Positions 9,731 through 23,300 of a DNA stretch of 32,000 bases are shown piece after piece. The stretch's first letter is position 1. The number at the start of each line of letters is the position of its first letter. Origin of the DNA: Candidatus Helarchaeota archaeon (GTDB lineage Archaea; Asgardarchaeota; Lokiarchaeia; Helarchaeales; RDOG01); the NCBI GenBank assembly GCA_029838215.1, contig JALGVI010000018.1:12096-44095 (forward strand), written 5' to 3'. The notes under the pieces are model-generated. The model did not search any database. It saw only the letters and a program-made list of their open reading frames with translations, and was not told the DNA's origin. The position numbers were made by a program, and so were the translations under genes.

Positions 9731-10885
9731 CTACGTGCTTGATTCAGATGGAACTGATGTTGGACGGAGTTTTGTTTTCAGGGGTTTTTCTAATTTTGTA
9801 TCAAAAATCCTAAATACGATGAGACTTGACCCGCATTTATTGCACTTTTCGTCTTCAATTTTGTAAATGTAGTCGCCCTCCTTGAACTCGCGGATTTGGC
9901 TGAAATTACATTCTGTATTCTCACAATGTACCTGAACTTGTGTTTCATGCTCAATTTTGCGTTTTATGACCTTACTTTTAATTTTAGGAGGCTTTTCTGC
10001 ATGTTTTTTCTTTTGAAGGACTTCGACGACTTGCTTTATCATTAATGGTGCACCGCATTTCTCACAAGTCTCCTGAAGCTGTTTCATCATGTAATCGCCT
10101 TCCTGAAATTCTCGAGTTGTTTCAAAACTGCAATGTTTTTCGCTCGTACAAGCAAGGACCGTTCTTGAAACTCTTTGATGTTTCGGTTTTTTAATCGGAA
10201 TTGATTTTATCTTTGCGTATTTCGCCTCTTTTTTGACCAATGGTTCTGATTCTTTTAAAATGTGATCCGAAATTTCGAGAATCTTCATTTGTTGTCCGCA
10301 TTGTGAACAGGTTTGCTCCACGGGCTTGAAAATATAGTCCGATTCTTCATGTGCACGTGAAATTTTTTCATCACATTCGTGGTTTAAGCAACCAATTACG
10401 GTTTCGGTTCGGTATTTTTTCCGTTGCTTGAATTTTCCAACACGAAATTTTTCATAATCGGGAGGTTTTGGGGGCTTTTTTAAGGGAGTATGAACGATTG
10501 CGGAAATGTAATAAGGTTGATTGCATTGAATACATGTTTCATCTAATTCCTTGAAAACGTGATCGCCTTTTTTGAAATCCCTGATGATGATTTCTTCGCA
10601 AGAAGATGGTGAACTGCATTTCAAAATTGAAAATGTTTCTCGCTTGATTACCAATTTTCTTGTTCCGAGAAACGACATCACGAATATCCCTGCCATCATG
10701 AGAATAAAACCAACTGATAGCAAGGCTCCTGAAATAATAGCGCTAATTTCTTGAGGGATGCCAAAAAATTGTGTTGGATTCAGGTAAAAAGAAAGCAAGA
10801 GCATGATTGCTCCTGTAACGACGATTATGAAACCGATCGTTTGAAAAAGTTTTGAAGCCTTTGTTAGTTCGCCTTCTTCGCTCAT
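9731..10885 (-). CDS. Membrane-anchored protein with four tandem zinc-ribbon repeats
   Basis: Two N-terminal TM helices (about residues 15-34 and 47-72). Then four units of about 78 aa, each C-x4/5-C ... (F)xEGDY ... C-x2-C-G. The Cys residues are 90/96/118/121, 166/171/193/196, 246/252/274/277 and 321/326/348/351. The units are separated by Lys/Pro-rich linkers. Confidence 0.75.
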   Translation of the reverse strand: MSEEGELTKASKLFQTIGFIIVVTGAIMLLLSFYLNPTQFFGIPQEISAIISGALLSVGFILMMAGIFVMSFLGTRKLVIKRETFSILKCSSPSSCEEIIIRDFKKGDHVFKELDETCIQCNQPYYISAIVHTPLKKPPKPPDYEKFRVGKFKQRKKYRTETVIGCLNHECDEKISRAHEESDYIFKPVEQTCSQCGQQMKILEISDHILKESEPLVKKEAKYAKIKSIPIKKPKHQRVSRTVLACTSEKHCSFETTREFQEGDYMMKQLQETCEKCGAPLMIKQVVEVLQKKKHAEKPPKIKSKVIKRKIEHETQVQVHCENTECNFSQIREFKEGDYIYKIEDEKCNKCGSSLIVFRIFDTKLEKPLKTKLRPTSVPSESST

Positions 10886-12042
10886 GAACCCACACCAATG
10901 GTGTTACCGACTCCACAGATTATGATGGAATCTCCTTCTTTTGTCCGTTTAATGATGCCTTCTTTTATTAATTCTATCGCAACAGGAACTGCGTCAGCTA
11001 TCTCTTTTTTCATTGGACCGTAAGCATCTTCTTCTGATTCTTTAATGACGTATCCATCCATGGGTATCTTGTACTTCGTGCCACCCTCTTCAATCTTGAA
11101 CTTTTCTACACCAGGTCCGCCAATAACTGCTCCCACGCCTTCTATTACATCGCCTGTTTTCTCACCTTCAAGCTTTAAGCCCGCATCAACCATGAAAAGT
11201 CTCGAAATCTTACCTTCATGTTCATCGAGTAGTTTCTTAATGGCTTCACCAGGCTTGCCAACGGTACCACCGGGACCTCTTGCCCTTATTAAATAGGCAT
11301 GACGTCCTTCAATGTCTATTTCCGCAATATCGGTATCTTCAACATAATCTTTTATGATTTTGGAATTTGAATCCTTATATTGATGGAAAAATGAAGCAGT
11401 AACGAGCGGTCCAATGCCATCTCCAATGGGTTTTCCAACCGAAAAAGCCTTTAATGCTTCCATGATGGCATTAGCAATTTTCATAATGAGGGCAAGTTGC
11501 ATTTGGATCTGCATGATGACCATGATTGAATTAGTTTTTTTCCCTAAGATGTAATAATGCCGCACGATCCTGTAAATCAAGTTGAGAGAAACGGCTGCTT
11601 CTAGCGTGCTCTCAATATTTTCTCGTTCCACGCGGCTAGCTTTCGGTGCAATATTTAAAACGTGACTCCGGAACCGGTTCTGGCGCATGTCCAACACGCG
11701 TTCTAAACGCCAAACCACGCCAGCAGGATCTAAACTTACAGGCTGTACCATGAAGAATTCTAAAAGATCTCCAACTGCTGCACGTGGATGAATTTCGGGA
11801 ATGCTGAATTTTTGAATGAGGTTAATTACTATCTCACGTCCCTCATGAGCAAGAGTCTGCAATTTTCCCACGGCTCCTTGAATGGCACGTAAATACGTGT
11901 AACTCTGAATTTTGGTCCCGTAGAACAAAAATGCAATGAAAAACACGTAAAAGCCAATTTGAAAAATCAAATTGATAACTGACATTACTGGGTCTGTCGT
12001 TCCCGTAGATGGTAGAAACAAAACATCTAGCATGTTAATCAC
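10882..12042 (-). CDS. Conserved archaeal membrane-associated protein, DUF1512-like (assignment from memory)
   Basis: N-terminal TM helix (VINLIFQIGFYVFFIAFLFYG). Then a soluble region with Gly-rich segments (RARGPGGTVGKPGEAIKK, GVGAVIGGPGVEKF, IICGVGNTIGVG). The stop overlaps the next gene start (ATGA). Confidence 0.6.
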   Translation of the reverse strand: MINMLDVLFLPSTGTTDPVMSVINLIFQIGFYVFFIAFLFYGTKIQSYTYLRAIQGAVGKLQTLAHEGREIVINLIQKFSIPEIHPRAAVGDLLEFFMVQPVSLDPAGVVWRLERVLDMRQNRFRSHVLNIAPKASRVERENIESTLEAAVSLNLIYRIVRHYYILGKKTNSIMVIMQIQMQLALIMKIANAIMEALKAFSVGKPIGDGIGPLVTASFFHQYKDSNSKIIKDYVEDTDIAEIDIEGRHAYLIRARGPGGTVGKPGEAIKKLLDEHEGKISRLFMVDAGLKLEGEKTGDVIEGVGAVIGGPGVEKFKIEEGGTKYKIPMDGYVIKESEEDAYGPMKKEIADAVPVAIELIKEGIIKRTKEGDSIIICGVGNTIGVGS

Positions 12043-12441: not shown

Positions 12442-12471
12442 ACTACTTTAACAGAAGATATTGCTATGTTA

Positions 12472-12623
12472 CCGAGCCGGGCGCCGAATTAAGCCTGGAC
12501 GCGGTCTTGATGGTATTGTTGTGGGCGACCCAACGAGAAGTCTTGATGGCTGTCCTTTCGGGGACGGTCATAGGTCCTGGGAACCATCCGTTCTCATCCC
12601 GAACACGGTAAAGCGCGGCTCGG
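12472..12623 (+). rRNA. 5S rRNA, circularly permuted gene order with flanking clamp helix
   Basis: Loop C / helix III motif CCGUUCUCAUCCCGAACACGG (12588-12608). 5S 5'-end motif ACGGUCAUAGGUCCUGGG (12564-12581). Loop E / helix IV segment GAUGGUAUUGUUGUGGGCGACCCAACGAGAAG (12509-12540, GCGA tetraloop). Helix II 3' strand UUAAGCCUGGAC (12489-12500). All are on the + strand, but the 3' half precedes the 5' half. This is also a local GC-rich island in an AT-rich spacer. Confidence 0.75.
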
Positions 12624-12651
12624 CATCTAACACAATTCAAGCATTGCATCA

Positions 12652-12662
12652 TTTTGTTTTTT
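12652..12662 (+). terminator. Oligo-T tract downstream of the 5S locus
   Basis: TTTTGTTTTTT lies about 30 nt after the flanking helix. Archaeal RNA polymerase terminates at T-runs. Confidence 0.4.
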
Positions 12663-22745: not shown

Positions 22746-23300
22746 ATGAGCAAGAAAGCCCCTTCAGAATCAGATGAGAAACCAATAAAATTCCTTTTAA
22801 TGGGATTGGATAATAGCGGCAAAACCTCAATAGCACTTTGTTTGAAGAAAAGTACAAATCTACTAAGTTACTGTCGGCTTAAACCCACGCCGGGTGTGAA
22901 CGTGGTGAATATCCTAGAAGGCGACCGGAAATTTGCGTTATGGGATCTTGGTGGTCAGGAGCGATATAGGATTGAGTACCTTGAAAATCTAAACAAGTAT
23001 ACAAAAGAAGTAGACAAAATCCTATTCGTGATTGACGTGCAGGATATCGAAAGATACGGGCTTGCATTGGATTATCTAAAAAATGTTGTTGATTTTATTA
23101 TATCAAATAGAATTCCTGTTGAACTTTCAGTATTCTTGCATAAATTTGATCCAAATCTGGAAGAGCTTGGAGATTTCTCCCCTGAGAAAATCACCGAAAA
23201 TTTGATTAATAAAATAAATGAAATCATCCCGGCAGATCTTTCATGTAAAATTTTCAAGACGTGTATTTATTCGATTTTTCAAAAAACATTGCTTTCCTAA
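22746..23300 (+). CDS. Arf/Sar/SR-beta-family small GTPase
   Basis: G1 LMGLDNSGKTS, G2 KPTPGVN, G3 WDLGGQERYR, G4 variant LHKFD. GAGGT lies 8 nt upstream of the ATG. Confidence 0.85.
   Translation: MSKKAPSESDEKPIKFLLMGLDNSGKTSIALCLKKSTNLLSYCRLKPTPGVNVVNILEGDRKFALWDLGGQERYRIEYLENLNKYTKEVDKILFVIDVQDIERYGLALDYLKNVVDFIISNRIPVELSVFLHKFDPNLEELGDFSPEKITENLINKINEIIPADLSCKIFKTCIYSIFQKTLLS

What the first reader, a model, noticed from the sequence alone, without database searches (positions are those of the whole stretch)
12472..12623. Circularly permuted 5S rRNA gene with hairpin-capped helix I and a BHB-like flanking clamp
**Element order.** All hallmark 5S elements are on the + strand but in rotated order.
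- First comes the helix II 3' strand UUAAGCCUGGAC (12489-12500).
- Next are the loop E / helix IV hairpin GAUGGUAUUGUUGUGGGCGACCCAACGAGAAG (12509-12540) and the helix I 3' strand GGCUGUCC (12548-12555).
- Then a 6-nt loop UUUCGG.
- Only after that come the helix I 5' strand GGACGGUC (12562-12569), the 5'-end motif GGUCAUAGGUCCUGGG and the loop C motif CAUCCCGAACACGG (12595-12608).

In every normal 5S rRNA the ...CAUCCCGAAC... half comes first and helix I holds the free ends.

**New ends.** Here the chain is open between ...ACGGUAA and UUAAGCC..., where a normal 5S reads ...CGGAAGUUAAGCC.... De-permuting at that point gives about 117 nt by my count, which is a normal 5S length.

**Flanking clamp.** CCGAGCC-GG-GCGC (12472-12484) pairs with GCGC-GGCUCGG (12613-12623). 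This gives 7 bp, a 2-nt bulge and 4 bp, followed by an AAA bulge. That geometry is close to the bulge-helix-bulge motif cut by the archaeal splicing endonuclease.

**Precedent.** BHB-dependent circularisation of permuted genes is known for permuted tRNA genes and for the permuted SRP RNA of Thermoproteales, and permuted 5S is known in some organelles. I am not aware of a permuted archaeal 5S rRNA gene. The mature form could be circular, re-linearised, or a linear permuted molecule held together by the clamp.
Basis: partly seen in the sequence, partly recalled or inferred. Interest (0 to 1): 0.85.

Follow-up and report, generated by a model that had tools for sequence, protein, structure and literature searches.

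The report
Circularly permuted 5S rRNA gene
In this Asgard (Helarchaeota) archaeon and its relatives the 5S ribosomal RNA gene is written back-to-front, and flanking sequences form a tRNA-splicing-type cut site, so the mature 5S rRNA is most likely cut out and joined into a circle, which has not been described for any cellular 5S rRNA gene.

Summary
Window 12489-12611 (+) is a complete 5S rRNA in rotated order: 3' half, helix I closed by a UUCG tetraloop, then 5' half.

- **Order test.** A covariance model built only from ordinary 5S genes rotated in silico matches it full length (58.4 bits). The collinear twin model gives 29 bits and Rfam RF00001 gives 22 bits, below its threshold of 38.
- **Relatives.** The same arrangement occurs in 11 other loci of Helarchaeota/Lokiarchaeota-type genomes, nearly always beside the DUF1512 gene. 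Helices I and II covary.
- **Flanks.** The flanks form a helix of 7-14 bp whose sequence differs in every lineage but whose pairing is kept (12 of 14 pairs show double changes). Next to it lie a 3-nt bulge, a covarying 4-bp helix (GCCG/CGGU) and 3 unpaired nucleotides.
- **Predicted product.** Canonical cuts plus ligation give a 121-124 nt circle. Its junction restores loop B at normal length, and in one relative exactly CGGAAG|UUAAGCC.

Cleavage, ligation and the circular mature form are inferred, not shown. I found no published precedent. It is a new variant of the known permuted-gene/BHB mechanism.

The parts
12472..12482 (+). 5' strand of the outer (processing) helix h
   Evidence: It pairs with 12613-12623 over 11 positions, with one G.G mismatch at 12480/12615. 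In the 12-sequence alignment A2, 12 of the 14 outer-helix pairs change on both sides, and sequence identity between lineages is only 14-47%.
12483..12486 (+). Top strand (GCCG) of the 4-bp central helix H of the BHB-like motif
   Evidence: It pairs with CGGU at 12606-12609. Across 12 relatives 97.9% of cells are paired. The variants seen are GCCG/CGGU, GCCG/CGGC, GUCG/CGGC and UCCG/CGGA. H forms in the unconstrained MFE fold of the window.
12487..12489 (+). Unpaired triplet AAU 3' of H on the leader strand; predicted 5' cut between 12488 and 12489
   Evidence: The triplet is always 3 nt (AAU, AUU or ACU) in all 12 loci. It is followed by the start of the 5S body. No closing inner helix was found, so this side is loop-like (relaxed BHB). 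The cut position is inferred from the canonical BHB rule.
12489..12611 (+). Permuted 5S rRNA body (123 nt), predicted to be excised and circularised
   Evidence: Full-length match (positions 1-121) to the rotated 5S model R1: 58.4 bits, E 6e-15. The collinear model R2 gives 29.2 bits and Rfam RF00001 gives 22 bits.
12494..12500 (+). Helix II, 3' strand (CCUGGAC)
   Evidence: It pairs with 12574-12580. In A2, 92.9% of cells are paired and 5 of 7 pairs change on both sides.
12501..12546 (+). Helix V, loop E, helix IV and loop D domain
   Evidence: It aligns to the corresponding part of the rotated 5S model. The pairs are moderately supported in A3.
12547..12556 (+). Helix I, 3' strand
   Evidence: It pairs with 12561-12570. 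In A3 the capped helix I is 100% paired, and 5 of its 9 pairs change on both sides.
12557..12560 (+). UUCG tetraloop that closes helix I where a normal 5S rRNA has its two ends
   Evidence: A 4-nt UNCG-type cap is present in all 12 loci: UUCG in 10, UGCG in L125 and UUUG in L134.
12561..12570 (+). Helix I, 5' strand
   Evidence: See the helix I 3' strand entry.
12574..12580 (+). Helix II, 5' strand, preceded by the loop A motif AUAG (12570-12573)
12588..12608 (+). Helix III and loop C (CCGUUC-UCAUCCC-GAACACGG)
   Evidence: All six helix III pairs are invariant in the 12 loci. The sequence matches the universal loop C motif.
12606..12609 (+). Bottom strand (CGGU) of central helix H; its CGG is also the 3' strand of the base of helix III
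   Evidence: H and the base of helix III are mutually exclusive pairings.
12610..12612 (+). 3-nt bulge AAA between H and the outer helix; predicted 3' cut between 12611 and 12612
   Evidence: The bulge is always 3 nt (AAA or AGA) in the 12 loci and abuts the outer helix directly in 11 of them (L137 is the exception). It is unpaired in the MFE fold.
12613..12623 (+). 3' strand of the outer (processing) helix h
   Evidence: See the 5' strand entry.
12652..12662 (+). T-rich tract (TTTTGTTTTTT), a candidate archaeal transcription stop
   Evidence: Read directly from the sequence. Similar oligo-T tracts lie 20-45 nt downstream of the outer helix in L134, L135, L137 and L139. Its function was not tested.

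Best explanation
This is the functional 5S rRNA gene of a Helarchaeota-type Asgard archaeon, encoded in circularly permuted order.

Proposed pathway:
1. The primary transcript runs from upstream of 12472 to about the T-tract at 12652-12662.
2. Its leader and trailer pair into an outer helix that stacks on a 4-bp helix (GCCG with CGGU). That helix is flanked by a 3-nt bulge on the trailer strand and 3 unpaired nucleotides on the leader strand. Together these form a relaxed bulge-helix-bulge (hBH/BHL) motif.
3. The archaeal tRNA-splicing endonuclease (EndA) cuts after the second unpaired nucleotide on each strand, at 12488|12489 and 12611|12612.
4. The RNA ligase RtcB joins the two ends of the excised 123-nt piece.
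5. The join rebuilds loop B (CGG-UAAU-UAAGCC, the same length as the canonical CGG-AAGU-UAAGC). It also removes the GCCG competitor, so CGG can pair in helix III.

The product is a covalently closed circular 5S rRNA in which helix I is permanently capped by a UUCG tetraloop.

Shown here: the permuted order, the conservation and covariation of the 5S helices, the outer helix and the 4-bp helix, and the fixed 3-nt spacings.
Inferred: cleavage by EndA, ligation by RtcB, and the circle being the form in the ribosome.
For: Permuted 5S:
- The rotated model R1, built only from ordinary bacterial and archaeal 5S genes, hits 12489-12611 full length at 58.4 bits. It hits 11 relatives at 41-61.5 bits.
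- The collinear twin R2 gives those loci only 18-36 bits. It gives untrained normal 5S genes 90-117 bits, and R1 gives those same genes only 28-50 bits.
- Rfam RF00001 scores 22 bits against a threshold of 38.

Functional constraint:
- The arrangement is found in at least 8 distinct lineages whose 5S bodies are 62-79% identical.
- The 5S body is 90.1% paired, against 28-45% when the partners are slid. The capped helix I is 100% paired, with 5 pairs changed on both sides.
- The cap is always a 4-nt UNCG-type loop.

BHB-like motif:
- In 11 of 12 loci the flanks pair directly against H and the bulge.
- 12 of 14 outer pairs change on both sides, and H is 97.9% paired with G.U, G-C and U-A variants. 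The whole structure is 87.9% paired, against 31-40% when slid.
- The unconstrained MFE fold shows the full motif in the window, L134, L135 and L139, and H with the leader-side triplet in L132.
- Strand topology (the unpaired triplet lies 3' of H on both strands) and the 3-4-3 spacing match the BHB definition (PMC5829648; PMC4731332).

Junction:
- Canonical cuts give circles of 121-124 nt. The junction is CGGUAA|UUAAGCC in the window and CGGAAG|UUAAGCC in L135, which is the exact consensus of normal 5S.

Enzymes and precedent:
- Asgard/TACK archaea have (alpha-beta)2 EndA, the type that cleaves relaxed motifs (PMC5829648).
- The same machinery circularises the permuted SRP RNA of Thermoproteus (PMC4731332).
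- Neighbouring tRNA genes in relatives carry long and multiple introns.
Against: - There are no RNA data. Cleavage, ligation and circularity are untested.
- The motif is not a strict hBHBh'. After the leader-side triplet only one base pair (U12490-A12605) could form an inner helix, so that cut site lies in a multiloop.
- In 7 of the 12 loci the unconstrained MFE fold does not show H.
- L137 deviates. H has an A.C mismatch, and the outer helix is replaced or interrupted by a leader hairpin.
- L134 would give a 153-nt circle with a 32-nt insertion at the junction.
- I could not scan whole genomes, so a collinear 5S copy elsewhere is not excluded.
- The EndA and RtcB genes of this organism were not examined.
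- The rule 'cut after the second bulge nucleotide' rests on established knowledge of canonical tRNA introns. It was not tested here.
Confidence: 0.65

Rival explanations
1. Linear permuted 5S rRNA. The precursor is cut at the BHB-like motif, or trimmed by other nucleases, but the ends are not joined. The ribosome would then carry a linear 5S whose ends lie in loop B and whose helix I is capped. This would resemble the linear permuted mitochondrial 5S of brown algae.
For: All the evidence for the permuted order and the capped helix I applies equally here. Linear permuted 5S rRNAs do exist in brown-algal mitochondria (PMC4267664). Nothing in the sequence proves ligation.
Against: EndA products (2',3'-cyclic phosphate and 5'-OH) are the natural RtcB substrates. 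Excised archaeal introns, pre-rRNAs and the permuted SRP RNA are all circularised (PMC4731332; PMC12918454). The cut positions restore loop B at exactly the canonical length, and in L135 the canonical sequence. That precision would not be needed if the ends stayed open.
Confidence: 0.17
2. Circular intermediate that is re-linearised. After ligation the circle is reopened in the helix I cap, giving a conventional 5S with ends at helix I. This is what happens with permuted tRNA genes and with circular pre-16S/23S rRNAs.
For: Re-linearisation after BHB-dependent circularisation is the known route for permuted tRNAs and for many archaeal pre-rRNAs (PMC10515664; PMC7758197).
Against: In all 12 loci the cap is only a 4-nt UNCG-type tetraloop sitting directly on a 9-10 bp helix. 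There is no spacer that could carry processing signals. Conservation of a thermostable tetraloop argues that it is kept rather than cut.
Confidence: 0.08
3. The clamp is retained. The flanks are not a processing signal but a new terminal helix of the mature RNA, so the product is a linear permuted 5S with an extra stem protruding from loop B.
For: The outer helix is strongly supported by covariation. A terminal stem would protect the ends.
Against: - The stem varies from 7 to more than 14 bp, has no conserved sequence, and is replaced by a different architecture in L137.
- The leader's GCCG pairs with the same CGG that helix III needs, so keeping it would compete with an invariant 5S helix.
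- The fixed 3-4-3 geometry has no obvious role in a mere clamp.
Confidence: 0.07
4. Non-functional rearranged pseudogene, remnant of a tandem duplication, or chimeric assembly.
For: No RNA family match reaches the Rfam threshold. A collinear copy elsewhere could not be excluded.
Against: - The element is identical in three independent assemblies that differ by nearby SNPs.
- The same order is conserved in at least 8 lineages with compensatory changes in helices I and II and in the flanking helices.
- The core is far more conserved than its flanks.
Confidence: 0.02

Closest known systems
Permuted SRP RNA gene of Thermoproteus (Plagens et al. 2015, eLife; PMC4731332)
   Same: A single essential structured RNA is encoded in permuted order. 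Leader and trailer fold into a BHB. The heterotetrameric splicing endonuclease cuts it, and the ends are ligated into a stable, functional circle. The new gene ends sit at a functionally important internal loop.
   Different: The RNA here is 5S rRNA, a ribosome component, and the lineage is Asgard rather than Thermoproteales. Here the former natural ends are closed by a minimal tetraloop, and the central BHB helix borrows three nucleotides from an essential helix (III). For SRP RNA the circle, the junction reads and the cleavage were shown experimentally. Here they are only predicted.
Circularly permuted tRNA genes (Cyanidioschyzon merolae; archaeal examples)
   Same: The 3' half is encoded upstream of the 5' half. 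A BHB forms between leader and trailer, and a circular RNA is produced by the splicing endonuclease and ligase. This rests on established knowledge and is mentioned in PMC4267664 and PMC5829648.
   Different: Permuted tRNA circles are intermediates. The spacer between the 3' and 5' ends is removed by RNase P and tRNase Z to give a linear tRNA. Here the spacer is a 4-nt tetraloop, which leaves no room for such processing.
BHB-dependent circular pre-16S/23S rRNAs and circular or permuted 23S rRNA in archaea
   Same: Long processing stems built from flanking sequence contain a BHB, and EndA and RtcB produce circular rRNA species. In some lineages the 23S stays circular or permuted in the ribosome (PMC7758197; PMC12918454; bioRxiv 10.64898/2026.03.23.713588).
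   Different: Those genes are collinear. Circularisation joins the natural ends and is not needed to restore the order of the RNA. The same papers state that 5S rRNA is not processed in this way.
Permuted mitochondrial 5S rRNA of brown algae (Valach et al. 2014; Rfam mtPerm-5S)
   Same: It is a natural 5S rRNA in which helix I no longer holds the two ends and a hairpin takes its place.
   Different: It is organellar. Only the alpha domain is rearranged, and the ends lie at the alpha/gamma junction rather than in loop B. The mature product is linear and permuted, and there is no BHB. No match to that family was reported for the window.
Low-abundance circular forms of collinear 5S rRNA in Sulfolobus and Halobacterium (Danan et al. 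2012; PMC3326292)
   Same: Circular 5S-sized molecules (123 nt) have been seen in archaeal circRNA-seq.
   Different: They come from end-to-end joining of a normal gene product, are rare, were not validated by RT-PCR, and may be degradation or side products. They are not required to rebuild the molecule.
Engineered circularly permuted 5S rRNA in E. coli (own knowledge: Huang et al. 2020, Nat Commun; not held in the searched library)
   Same: The native 5S ends are closed by a loop and new ends are opened elsewhere, and such molecules support ribosome function.
   Different: It is artificial, bacterial and grafted into 23S rRNA. There is no BHB processing and no circle.

Membership tests
5S rRNA (Rfam RF00001, clan CL00113) | Three-way junction with helices I-V and the conserved loop A, loop C and loop E sequences | tested here: met
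   The rotated model R1 matches 12489-12611 full length at 58.4 bits. In the 12 Asgard sequences 90.1% of cells in the 5S structure are paired, against 28-45% when slid. Helices I and II covary, and helix III and loop C are invariant.
5S rRNA (Rfam RF00001, clan CL00113) | Collinear order (5' half then 3' half) with both ends in helix I; score at or above the family gathering threshold | tested here: not met
   No hit at gathering threshold. The best hit is 22 bits against a threshold of 38, as two half-hits in reversed order. The collinear model R2 gives 29.2 bits here but 90-117 bits for normal genes.
5S rRNA (Rfam RF00001, clan CL00113) | Incorporation into the large ribosomal subunit | not testable with these tools
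   Needs RNA or ribosome data from the organism.
Substrates of the archaeal splicing endonuclease (BHB motif) | Central helix of exactly 4 bp | tested here: met
   12483-12486 pairs with 12606-12609. Across 12 loci 97.9% of cells are paired. The first pair is G.U in 7, G-C in 3 and U-A in 1, with one A.C exception (L137). The second pair is C-G in 11 and U.G in 1.
Substrates of the archaeal splicing endonuclease (BHB motif) | A 3-nt bulge 3' of the central helix on the trailer strand, closed by an outer helix | tested here: met
   AAA or AGA, always 3 nt, is followed directly by the outer helix in 11 of 12 loci. The outer helix has 12 of 14 pairs changed on both sides.
Substrates of the archaeal splicing endonuclease (BHB motif) | A second 3-nt bulge on the other strand, closed by an inner helix h' (strict hBHBh') | tested here: not met
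   The three unpaired nucleotides (AAU, AUU or ACU) are present in all loci. Beyond them only U12490-A12605 could pair, so the site opens into the 5S multiloop. This corresponds to the relaxed hBH/BHL class described in PMC5829648 and to the definition 'at least one 3-nt bulge' in PMC4731332.
Substrates of the archaeal splicing endonuclease (BHB motif) | Cleavage by EndA at the bulges and ligation by RtcB | not testable with these tools
   There is indirect support only. Canonical cut positions restore loop B length, and in L135 they restore the sequence CGGAAG|UUAAGCC.
Substrates of the archaeal splicing endonuclease (BHB motif) | The host encodes an EndA type able to cut relaxed motifs | not tested
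   The literature assigns (alpha-beta)2 EndA to Asgard/TACK (PMC5829648). This organism's genes lie outside the window and were not examined.
Permuted mitochondrial 5S rRNA (mtPerm-5S) | Helix I replaced by a 5' hairpin, ends at the alpha/gamma junction, beta and gamma domains collinear | tested here: not met
   Here the break is in loop B between helices II and III, and the whole molecule is rotated. No Rfam hit other than RF00001 was reported; overlapping weaker hits of the same clan are not listed by the tool.

The most novel reading that the evidence does not exclude
A whole clade of Asgard archaea (Helarchaeota/Lokiarchaeota-type lineages) has no collinear 5S rRNA gene. Instead it builds its ribosomes with a covalently closed circular 5S rRNA, made from a permuted gene by the tRNA-splicing endonuclease and RtcB. 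Ribosome biogenesis would then depend on the tRNA-splicing machinery. Standard rRNA annotation would be blind to the 5S gene of these genomes.
Probability: 0.55. Interest if true: 0.88.

Novelty: new variant of a known kind. Interest (0 to 1): 0.82.

Why it matters
5S rRNA is universal and is regarded as easy to find in archaeal genomes.
- **Annotation.** A clade in which the gene is permuted escapes Rfam-type annotation. Here the score is 22 bits against a threshold of 38. Such genomes would be reported as lacking 5S, which affects MAG quality calls that require all three rRNAs.
- **Biology.** This would be the first cellular 5S rRNA encoded in permuted order. It would probably also be the first 5S that is obligatorily circular. 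It extends the 'moonlighting' of the tRNA-splicing endonuclease and RtcB from tRNA, SRP RNA and 16S/23S processing to the third rRNA.
- **Lineage.** It occurs in Asgard archaea, the closest archaeal relatives of eukaryotes, whose RNA processing is of particular interest.
- **Engineering.** It gives a natural counterpart to engineered permuted 5S rRNAs.
- **Testability.** The prediction is simple: junction reads joining 12611 to 12489.

Tried and rejected
- **Genome scan wasted.** These loci served only as a source of normal 5S genes for the control models. As a result, neither the taxonomic breadth nor the absence of a collinear 5S copy could be tested genome-wide.
- **Metagenome scan.** A BHB-aware pattern gave only one true relative (L129) and three chance matches (L128, L130, L131).
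The proposed 7 bp + GG bulge + GCGC/GCGC was rejected. It cannot be drawn in the relatives, whereas the GCCG/CGGU register is conserved and covaries.
- **Inner helix h'.** I looked for one to make a strict hBHBh' and found none.
- **Synteny.** L138, a DUF1512 locus of another relative, has no 5S nearby, so the synteny is not universal.
- **R1 scores on normal loci.** At first sight R1's 40-50 bit hits on normal 5S loci looked like a problem. They turned out to be half-hits driven by the very conserved 5' half, for example 23S end plus 5' half in L025. For that reason I built the collinear twin R2 as a reciprocal control.
- **Promoter.** Several AT-rich boxes lie upstream, but no TATA box or transcription start could be assigned with confidence.
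- **Literature.** Searches for a permuted or circular 5S gene in archaea found no precedent.
Full report
**1. What is in the sequence**

Reading 5' to 3' they contain:
- a leader strand
- the 5S motif UUAAGCC with the 3' strand of helix II
- the loop E / helix IV-V domain
- the 3' strand of helix I
- a short loop
- the 5' strand of helix I, then CAUAG
- the 5' strand of helix II
- helix III with loop C (CAUCCCGAACACGG)
- a trailer complementary to the leader

The window has no tRNA and no RNA family reaching Rfam's gathering threshold. With a permissive threshold, Rfam's 5S model gives two sub-threshold hits in reversed order. The 5' half of the model is at 12560-12657 (22 bits; threshold 38). 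The 3' half is at 12456-12558 (14 bits).

**2. Independent test of the rotated order**

The Rfam tool cannot take a rotated sequence, so I rotated the model instead.
- I extracted 35 ordinary 5S genes (32 bacterial, 3 archaeal) from unrelated loci and added the Rfam consensus.
- I cut each one at CGGNNN|UUAAGC and joined its natural ends with UUCG.
- I aligned them (A1) and built model R1 with the standard 5S pairs. None of the training sequences is from Asgard archaea.

R1 matches window 12489-12611 over its full length (1-121) at 58.4 bits, E about 6e-15.

I then built a twin model, R2, from the same sequences and pairs in the normal order. The two models behave reciprocally:

| Target | Rotated R1 | Collinear R2 |
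|---|---|---|
| Window | 58.4 bits, full length | 29.2 bits |
| Related Asgard loci | 41-61.5 bits, full length | 18-36 bits |
| Normal 5S genes not used in training | 28-50 bits, half-hits | 90-117 bits, full length |

So the element is a complete 5S rRNA sequence in circularly permuted order.

**3. Organism, assembly support and relatives**

The neighbouring DUF1512 protein is identical to one that NCBI names from a Candidatus Helarchaeota MAG. An Arf-family GTPase gene in the window fits an Asgard origin.

The 152-nt element is identical in three independently assembled JGI metagenome contigs. Those contigs differ from the window by SNPs 131 nt upstream or 33 nt downstream, so this is not an assembly chimera.

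I fetched contigs that encode DUF1512 homologues of 54-65% identity. In L124-L127, L132-L137 and L139 I found the same permuted 5S in the intergenic region upstream of that gene. One more came from the metagenome scan (L129). One locus, L138, has none nearby.

The 5S bodies are 62-79% identical between lineages, so these are not close strains.

**4. Structure and covariation of the 5S body**

I aligned the 12 sequences to R1 (A3).
- 90.1% of cells form standard pairs, against 28-45% when the partners are slid by 1-3 columns.
- Helix II has 4 of 5 pairs changed on both sides.
- Helix III is invariant.
- The capped helix I is 100% paired, with 5 of 9 pairs changed on both sides.

In every locus the cap is a 4-nt UNCG-type loop: UUCG in ten, UGCG in L125 and UUUG in L134. 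A pseudogene would not keep this.

**5. The flanks**

In all loci except L137, the nucleotides immediately upstream pair with those immediately downstream. In alignment A2 (14 flanking nucleotides on each side) 12 of the 14 outer pairs change on both sides. The two strands themselves are only 14-47% identical between lineages. The whole precursor structure is 87.9% paired, against 31-40% when slid.

Between the outer helix and the 5S body the spacing is fixed:
- On the leader strand, 4 nt (GCCG, GUCG, UCCG or ACCG), then 3 unpaired nt (AAU, AUU or ACU), then UAAGC.
- On the trailer strand, ...GAACA, then 4 nt (CGGU, CGGC or CGGA), then 3 nt (AAA or AGA), then the outer helix.

The two 4-nt blocks pair in 97.9% of cells and covary: G.U, G-C and U-A at the first pair, and C-G to U.G at the second. 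In the window this is:
- outer helix 12472-12482/12613-12623 (one G.G mismatch)
- helix H 12483-12486/12606-12609
- unpaired triplets 12487-12489 and 12610-12612

ViennaRNA finds exactly this structure as the unconstrained MFE of the window, L134, L135 and L139. In L132 the MFE shows H with the leader-side triplet unpaired.

**6. Comparison with the BHB motif**

The archaeal splicing endonuclease recognises a 4-bp helix flanked by two 3-nt bulges. Relaxed forms (hBH, HBh', BHL) lack one closed bulge. They are cut by the (alpha-beta)2 and epsilon2 enzymes, and the (alpha-beta)2 type is reported for Asgard/TACK (PMC5829648; PMC7714728). Plagens et al. define the motif as a 4-bp helix with at least one 3-nt bulge (PMC4731332).

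Here the trailer-side bulge is fully canonical. It is closed by H on one side and by the outer helix on the other. The leader-side triplet has the right length and lies on the right side of H, but no inner helix follows it; only U12490-A12605 could pair. The motif is therefore a relaxed hBH/BHL, not a strict hBHBh'.

Established knowledge of canonical tRNA introns places the cuts after the second bulge nucleotide. That gives 12488|12489 and 12611|12612, which are the limits of the R1 match. Joining the excised ends gives CGG-UAAU-UAAGCC. This has the same four-nucleotide spacing as the canonical CGG-AAGU-UAAGC. In L135 the junction is literally CGGAAG|UUAAGCC. The predicted products are 121-124 nt, and 153 nt in L134.

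**7. Most likely mechanism**

The leader's GCCG pairs with the same CGG that forms the base of the invariant helix III. The precursor therefore cannot fold into a complete 5S until the leader is removed. This argues that the flanks are a processing signal and not a permanent clamp.

EndA cleavage leaves ends that RtcB joins. Archaeal introns, pre-16S/23S rRNAs and the permuted SRP RNA of Thermoproteus are all circularised in this way. The 4-nt tetraloop cap leaves no room for the end-processing that reopens permuted tRNA circles.

I therefore consider a covalently closed circular 5S rRNA the most likely mature form (about 0.65 for the whole chain). The rivals are:
- a linear permuted molecule (about 0.17)
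- re-linearisation at the cap (about 0.08)
- a retained clamp (about 0.07)
- a pseudogene or artefact (about 0.02)

Permutation, conservation and covariation are shown. Cleavage, ligation and circularity are inferred.

**8. Exceptions and limits**

- **L137.** It has an A.C mismatch in H. A 10-bp hairpin in the leader abuts H where the outer helix should be. It also lies on the same strand as DUF1512.
- **L134.** It carries a 32-nt insertion directly after the predicted leader-side cut. The insertion can fold into a hairpin.
- **Whole genomes.** I could not test whether a collinear 5S copy exists elsewhere in these genomes or how far the trait extends within Asgard archaea.
- **Transcription signals.** No promoter could be assigned. 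A T-rich tract at 12652-12662 is a plausible terminator.

**9. Known precedents and novelty**

- The closest system is the permuted, BHB-processed, circular SRP RNA of Thermoproteus, followed by permuted tRNA genes.
- Brown-algal mitochondria have a differently permuted, linear 5S with no BHB.
- Rare circular forms of normal 5S were seen in Sulfolobus and Halobacterium but were not validated.
- Recent work on archaeal rRNA circularisation states that 5S is not processed this way.
- Seven literature searches found no report of a permuted or obligatorily circular 5S gene in archaea.
- Rfam 15 has no family that captures it.

I rate it a new variant of a known kind: a known mechanism applied to a new and unexpected substrate, and conserved across a clade.

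Noticed in passing
L124 9075-9400 (-), L126 9060-9420 (-), L125 9130-9310 (-): In several relatives, tRNA genes follow directly downstream of the permuted 5S on the same strand. Some carry long or multiple introns: a tRNA-Pro with a 34-nt intron in L124, and a tRNA-like gene starting GGGGUCGUGGUCUAGA and ending GGGUUCAAAUCCCUUCGACCCCA with about 120 nt of inserts. ARAGORN misses them, and Rfam reports them only as weak tRNA or spurious 'tmRNA' hits. This suggests a 5S-tRNA transcription unit and heavy reliance on the splicing endonuclease in these lineages. The window itself has no such tRNAs.
   Followed up: partly
L134 3682-3651 (-): There is a 32-nt insertion (UAUACUCUCCGAUGAGUUCGGUGGGUACUGUA) exactly at the predicted ligation junction of this relative's permuted 5S. 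It can form a hairpin of about 10 bp. It could be an expansion segment of loop B, or a remnant or second intron. It would give a 153-nt product.
   Followed up: partly
L137 3410-3600 (+): This is a deviant precursor architecture. A perfect 10-bp hairpin (CUAAAUUCGG-CGAA-CCGAAUUUAG) in the leader abuts the 4-nt block ACCG. That block has an A.C mismatch with CGGC. The leader-trailer pairing is displaced, and the gene lies on the same strand as DUF1512, unlike all the other loci.
   Followed up: partly
window 10882-12042 (-) with 12472-12623 (+); L124-L127, L132-L137, L139: There is conserved divergent synteny. The permuted 5S gene lies upstream of a DUF1512 gene, which is followed by a short ORF and a CTP_transf_like (phosphopantetheine adenylyltransferase-type) gene, across lineages with 54-65% DUF1512 identity. 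No functional link is known.
   Followed up: no
window 12455-12470 with 12640-12655; also L129, L133, L134, L135, L139 flanks: MFE folds extend the leader-trailer pairing well beyond the 11-14 bp outer helix, across an internal loop (for example about 26 paired positions in L134, and a second 10-bp helix in L135). This resembles the long processing stems of 16S/23S rRNA. It was not tested for covariation.
   Followed up: no
window 9731-10885 (-): This is a 384-aa ORF with no Pfam hit on record. It has an N-terminal hydrophobic region followed by four repeats of roughly 70 aa. Each repeat carries two cysteine pairs (for example C..C ... CxxC), so it looks like a membrane-anchored array of zinc-ribbon-like modules.
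   Followed up: no
window 22746-23300 (+) (= L001 124-678): An Arf/Gtr1-RagA-family small GTPase gene, a eukaryotic-signature protein typical of Asgard archaea. Further Asgard-type genes (Longin, EAP30, Roadblock/LC7) appear in the related locus L135.
   Followed up: no
L004-L123 (genome-contig scan): Many bacterial 23S rRNA 3' ends contain GTAAGCC about 100 nt upstream of the 5S loop C motif. Any pattern search for 'TAAGCC ... CCCGAAC' in rotated order is therefore swamped by ordinary 23S-5S junctions. Requiring TTAAGC avoids this.
   Followed up: yes
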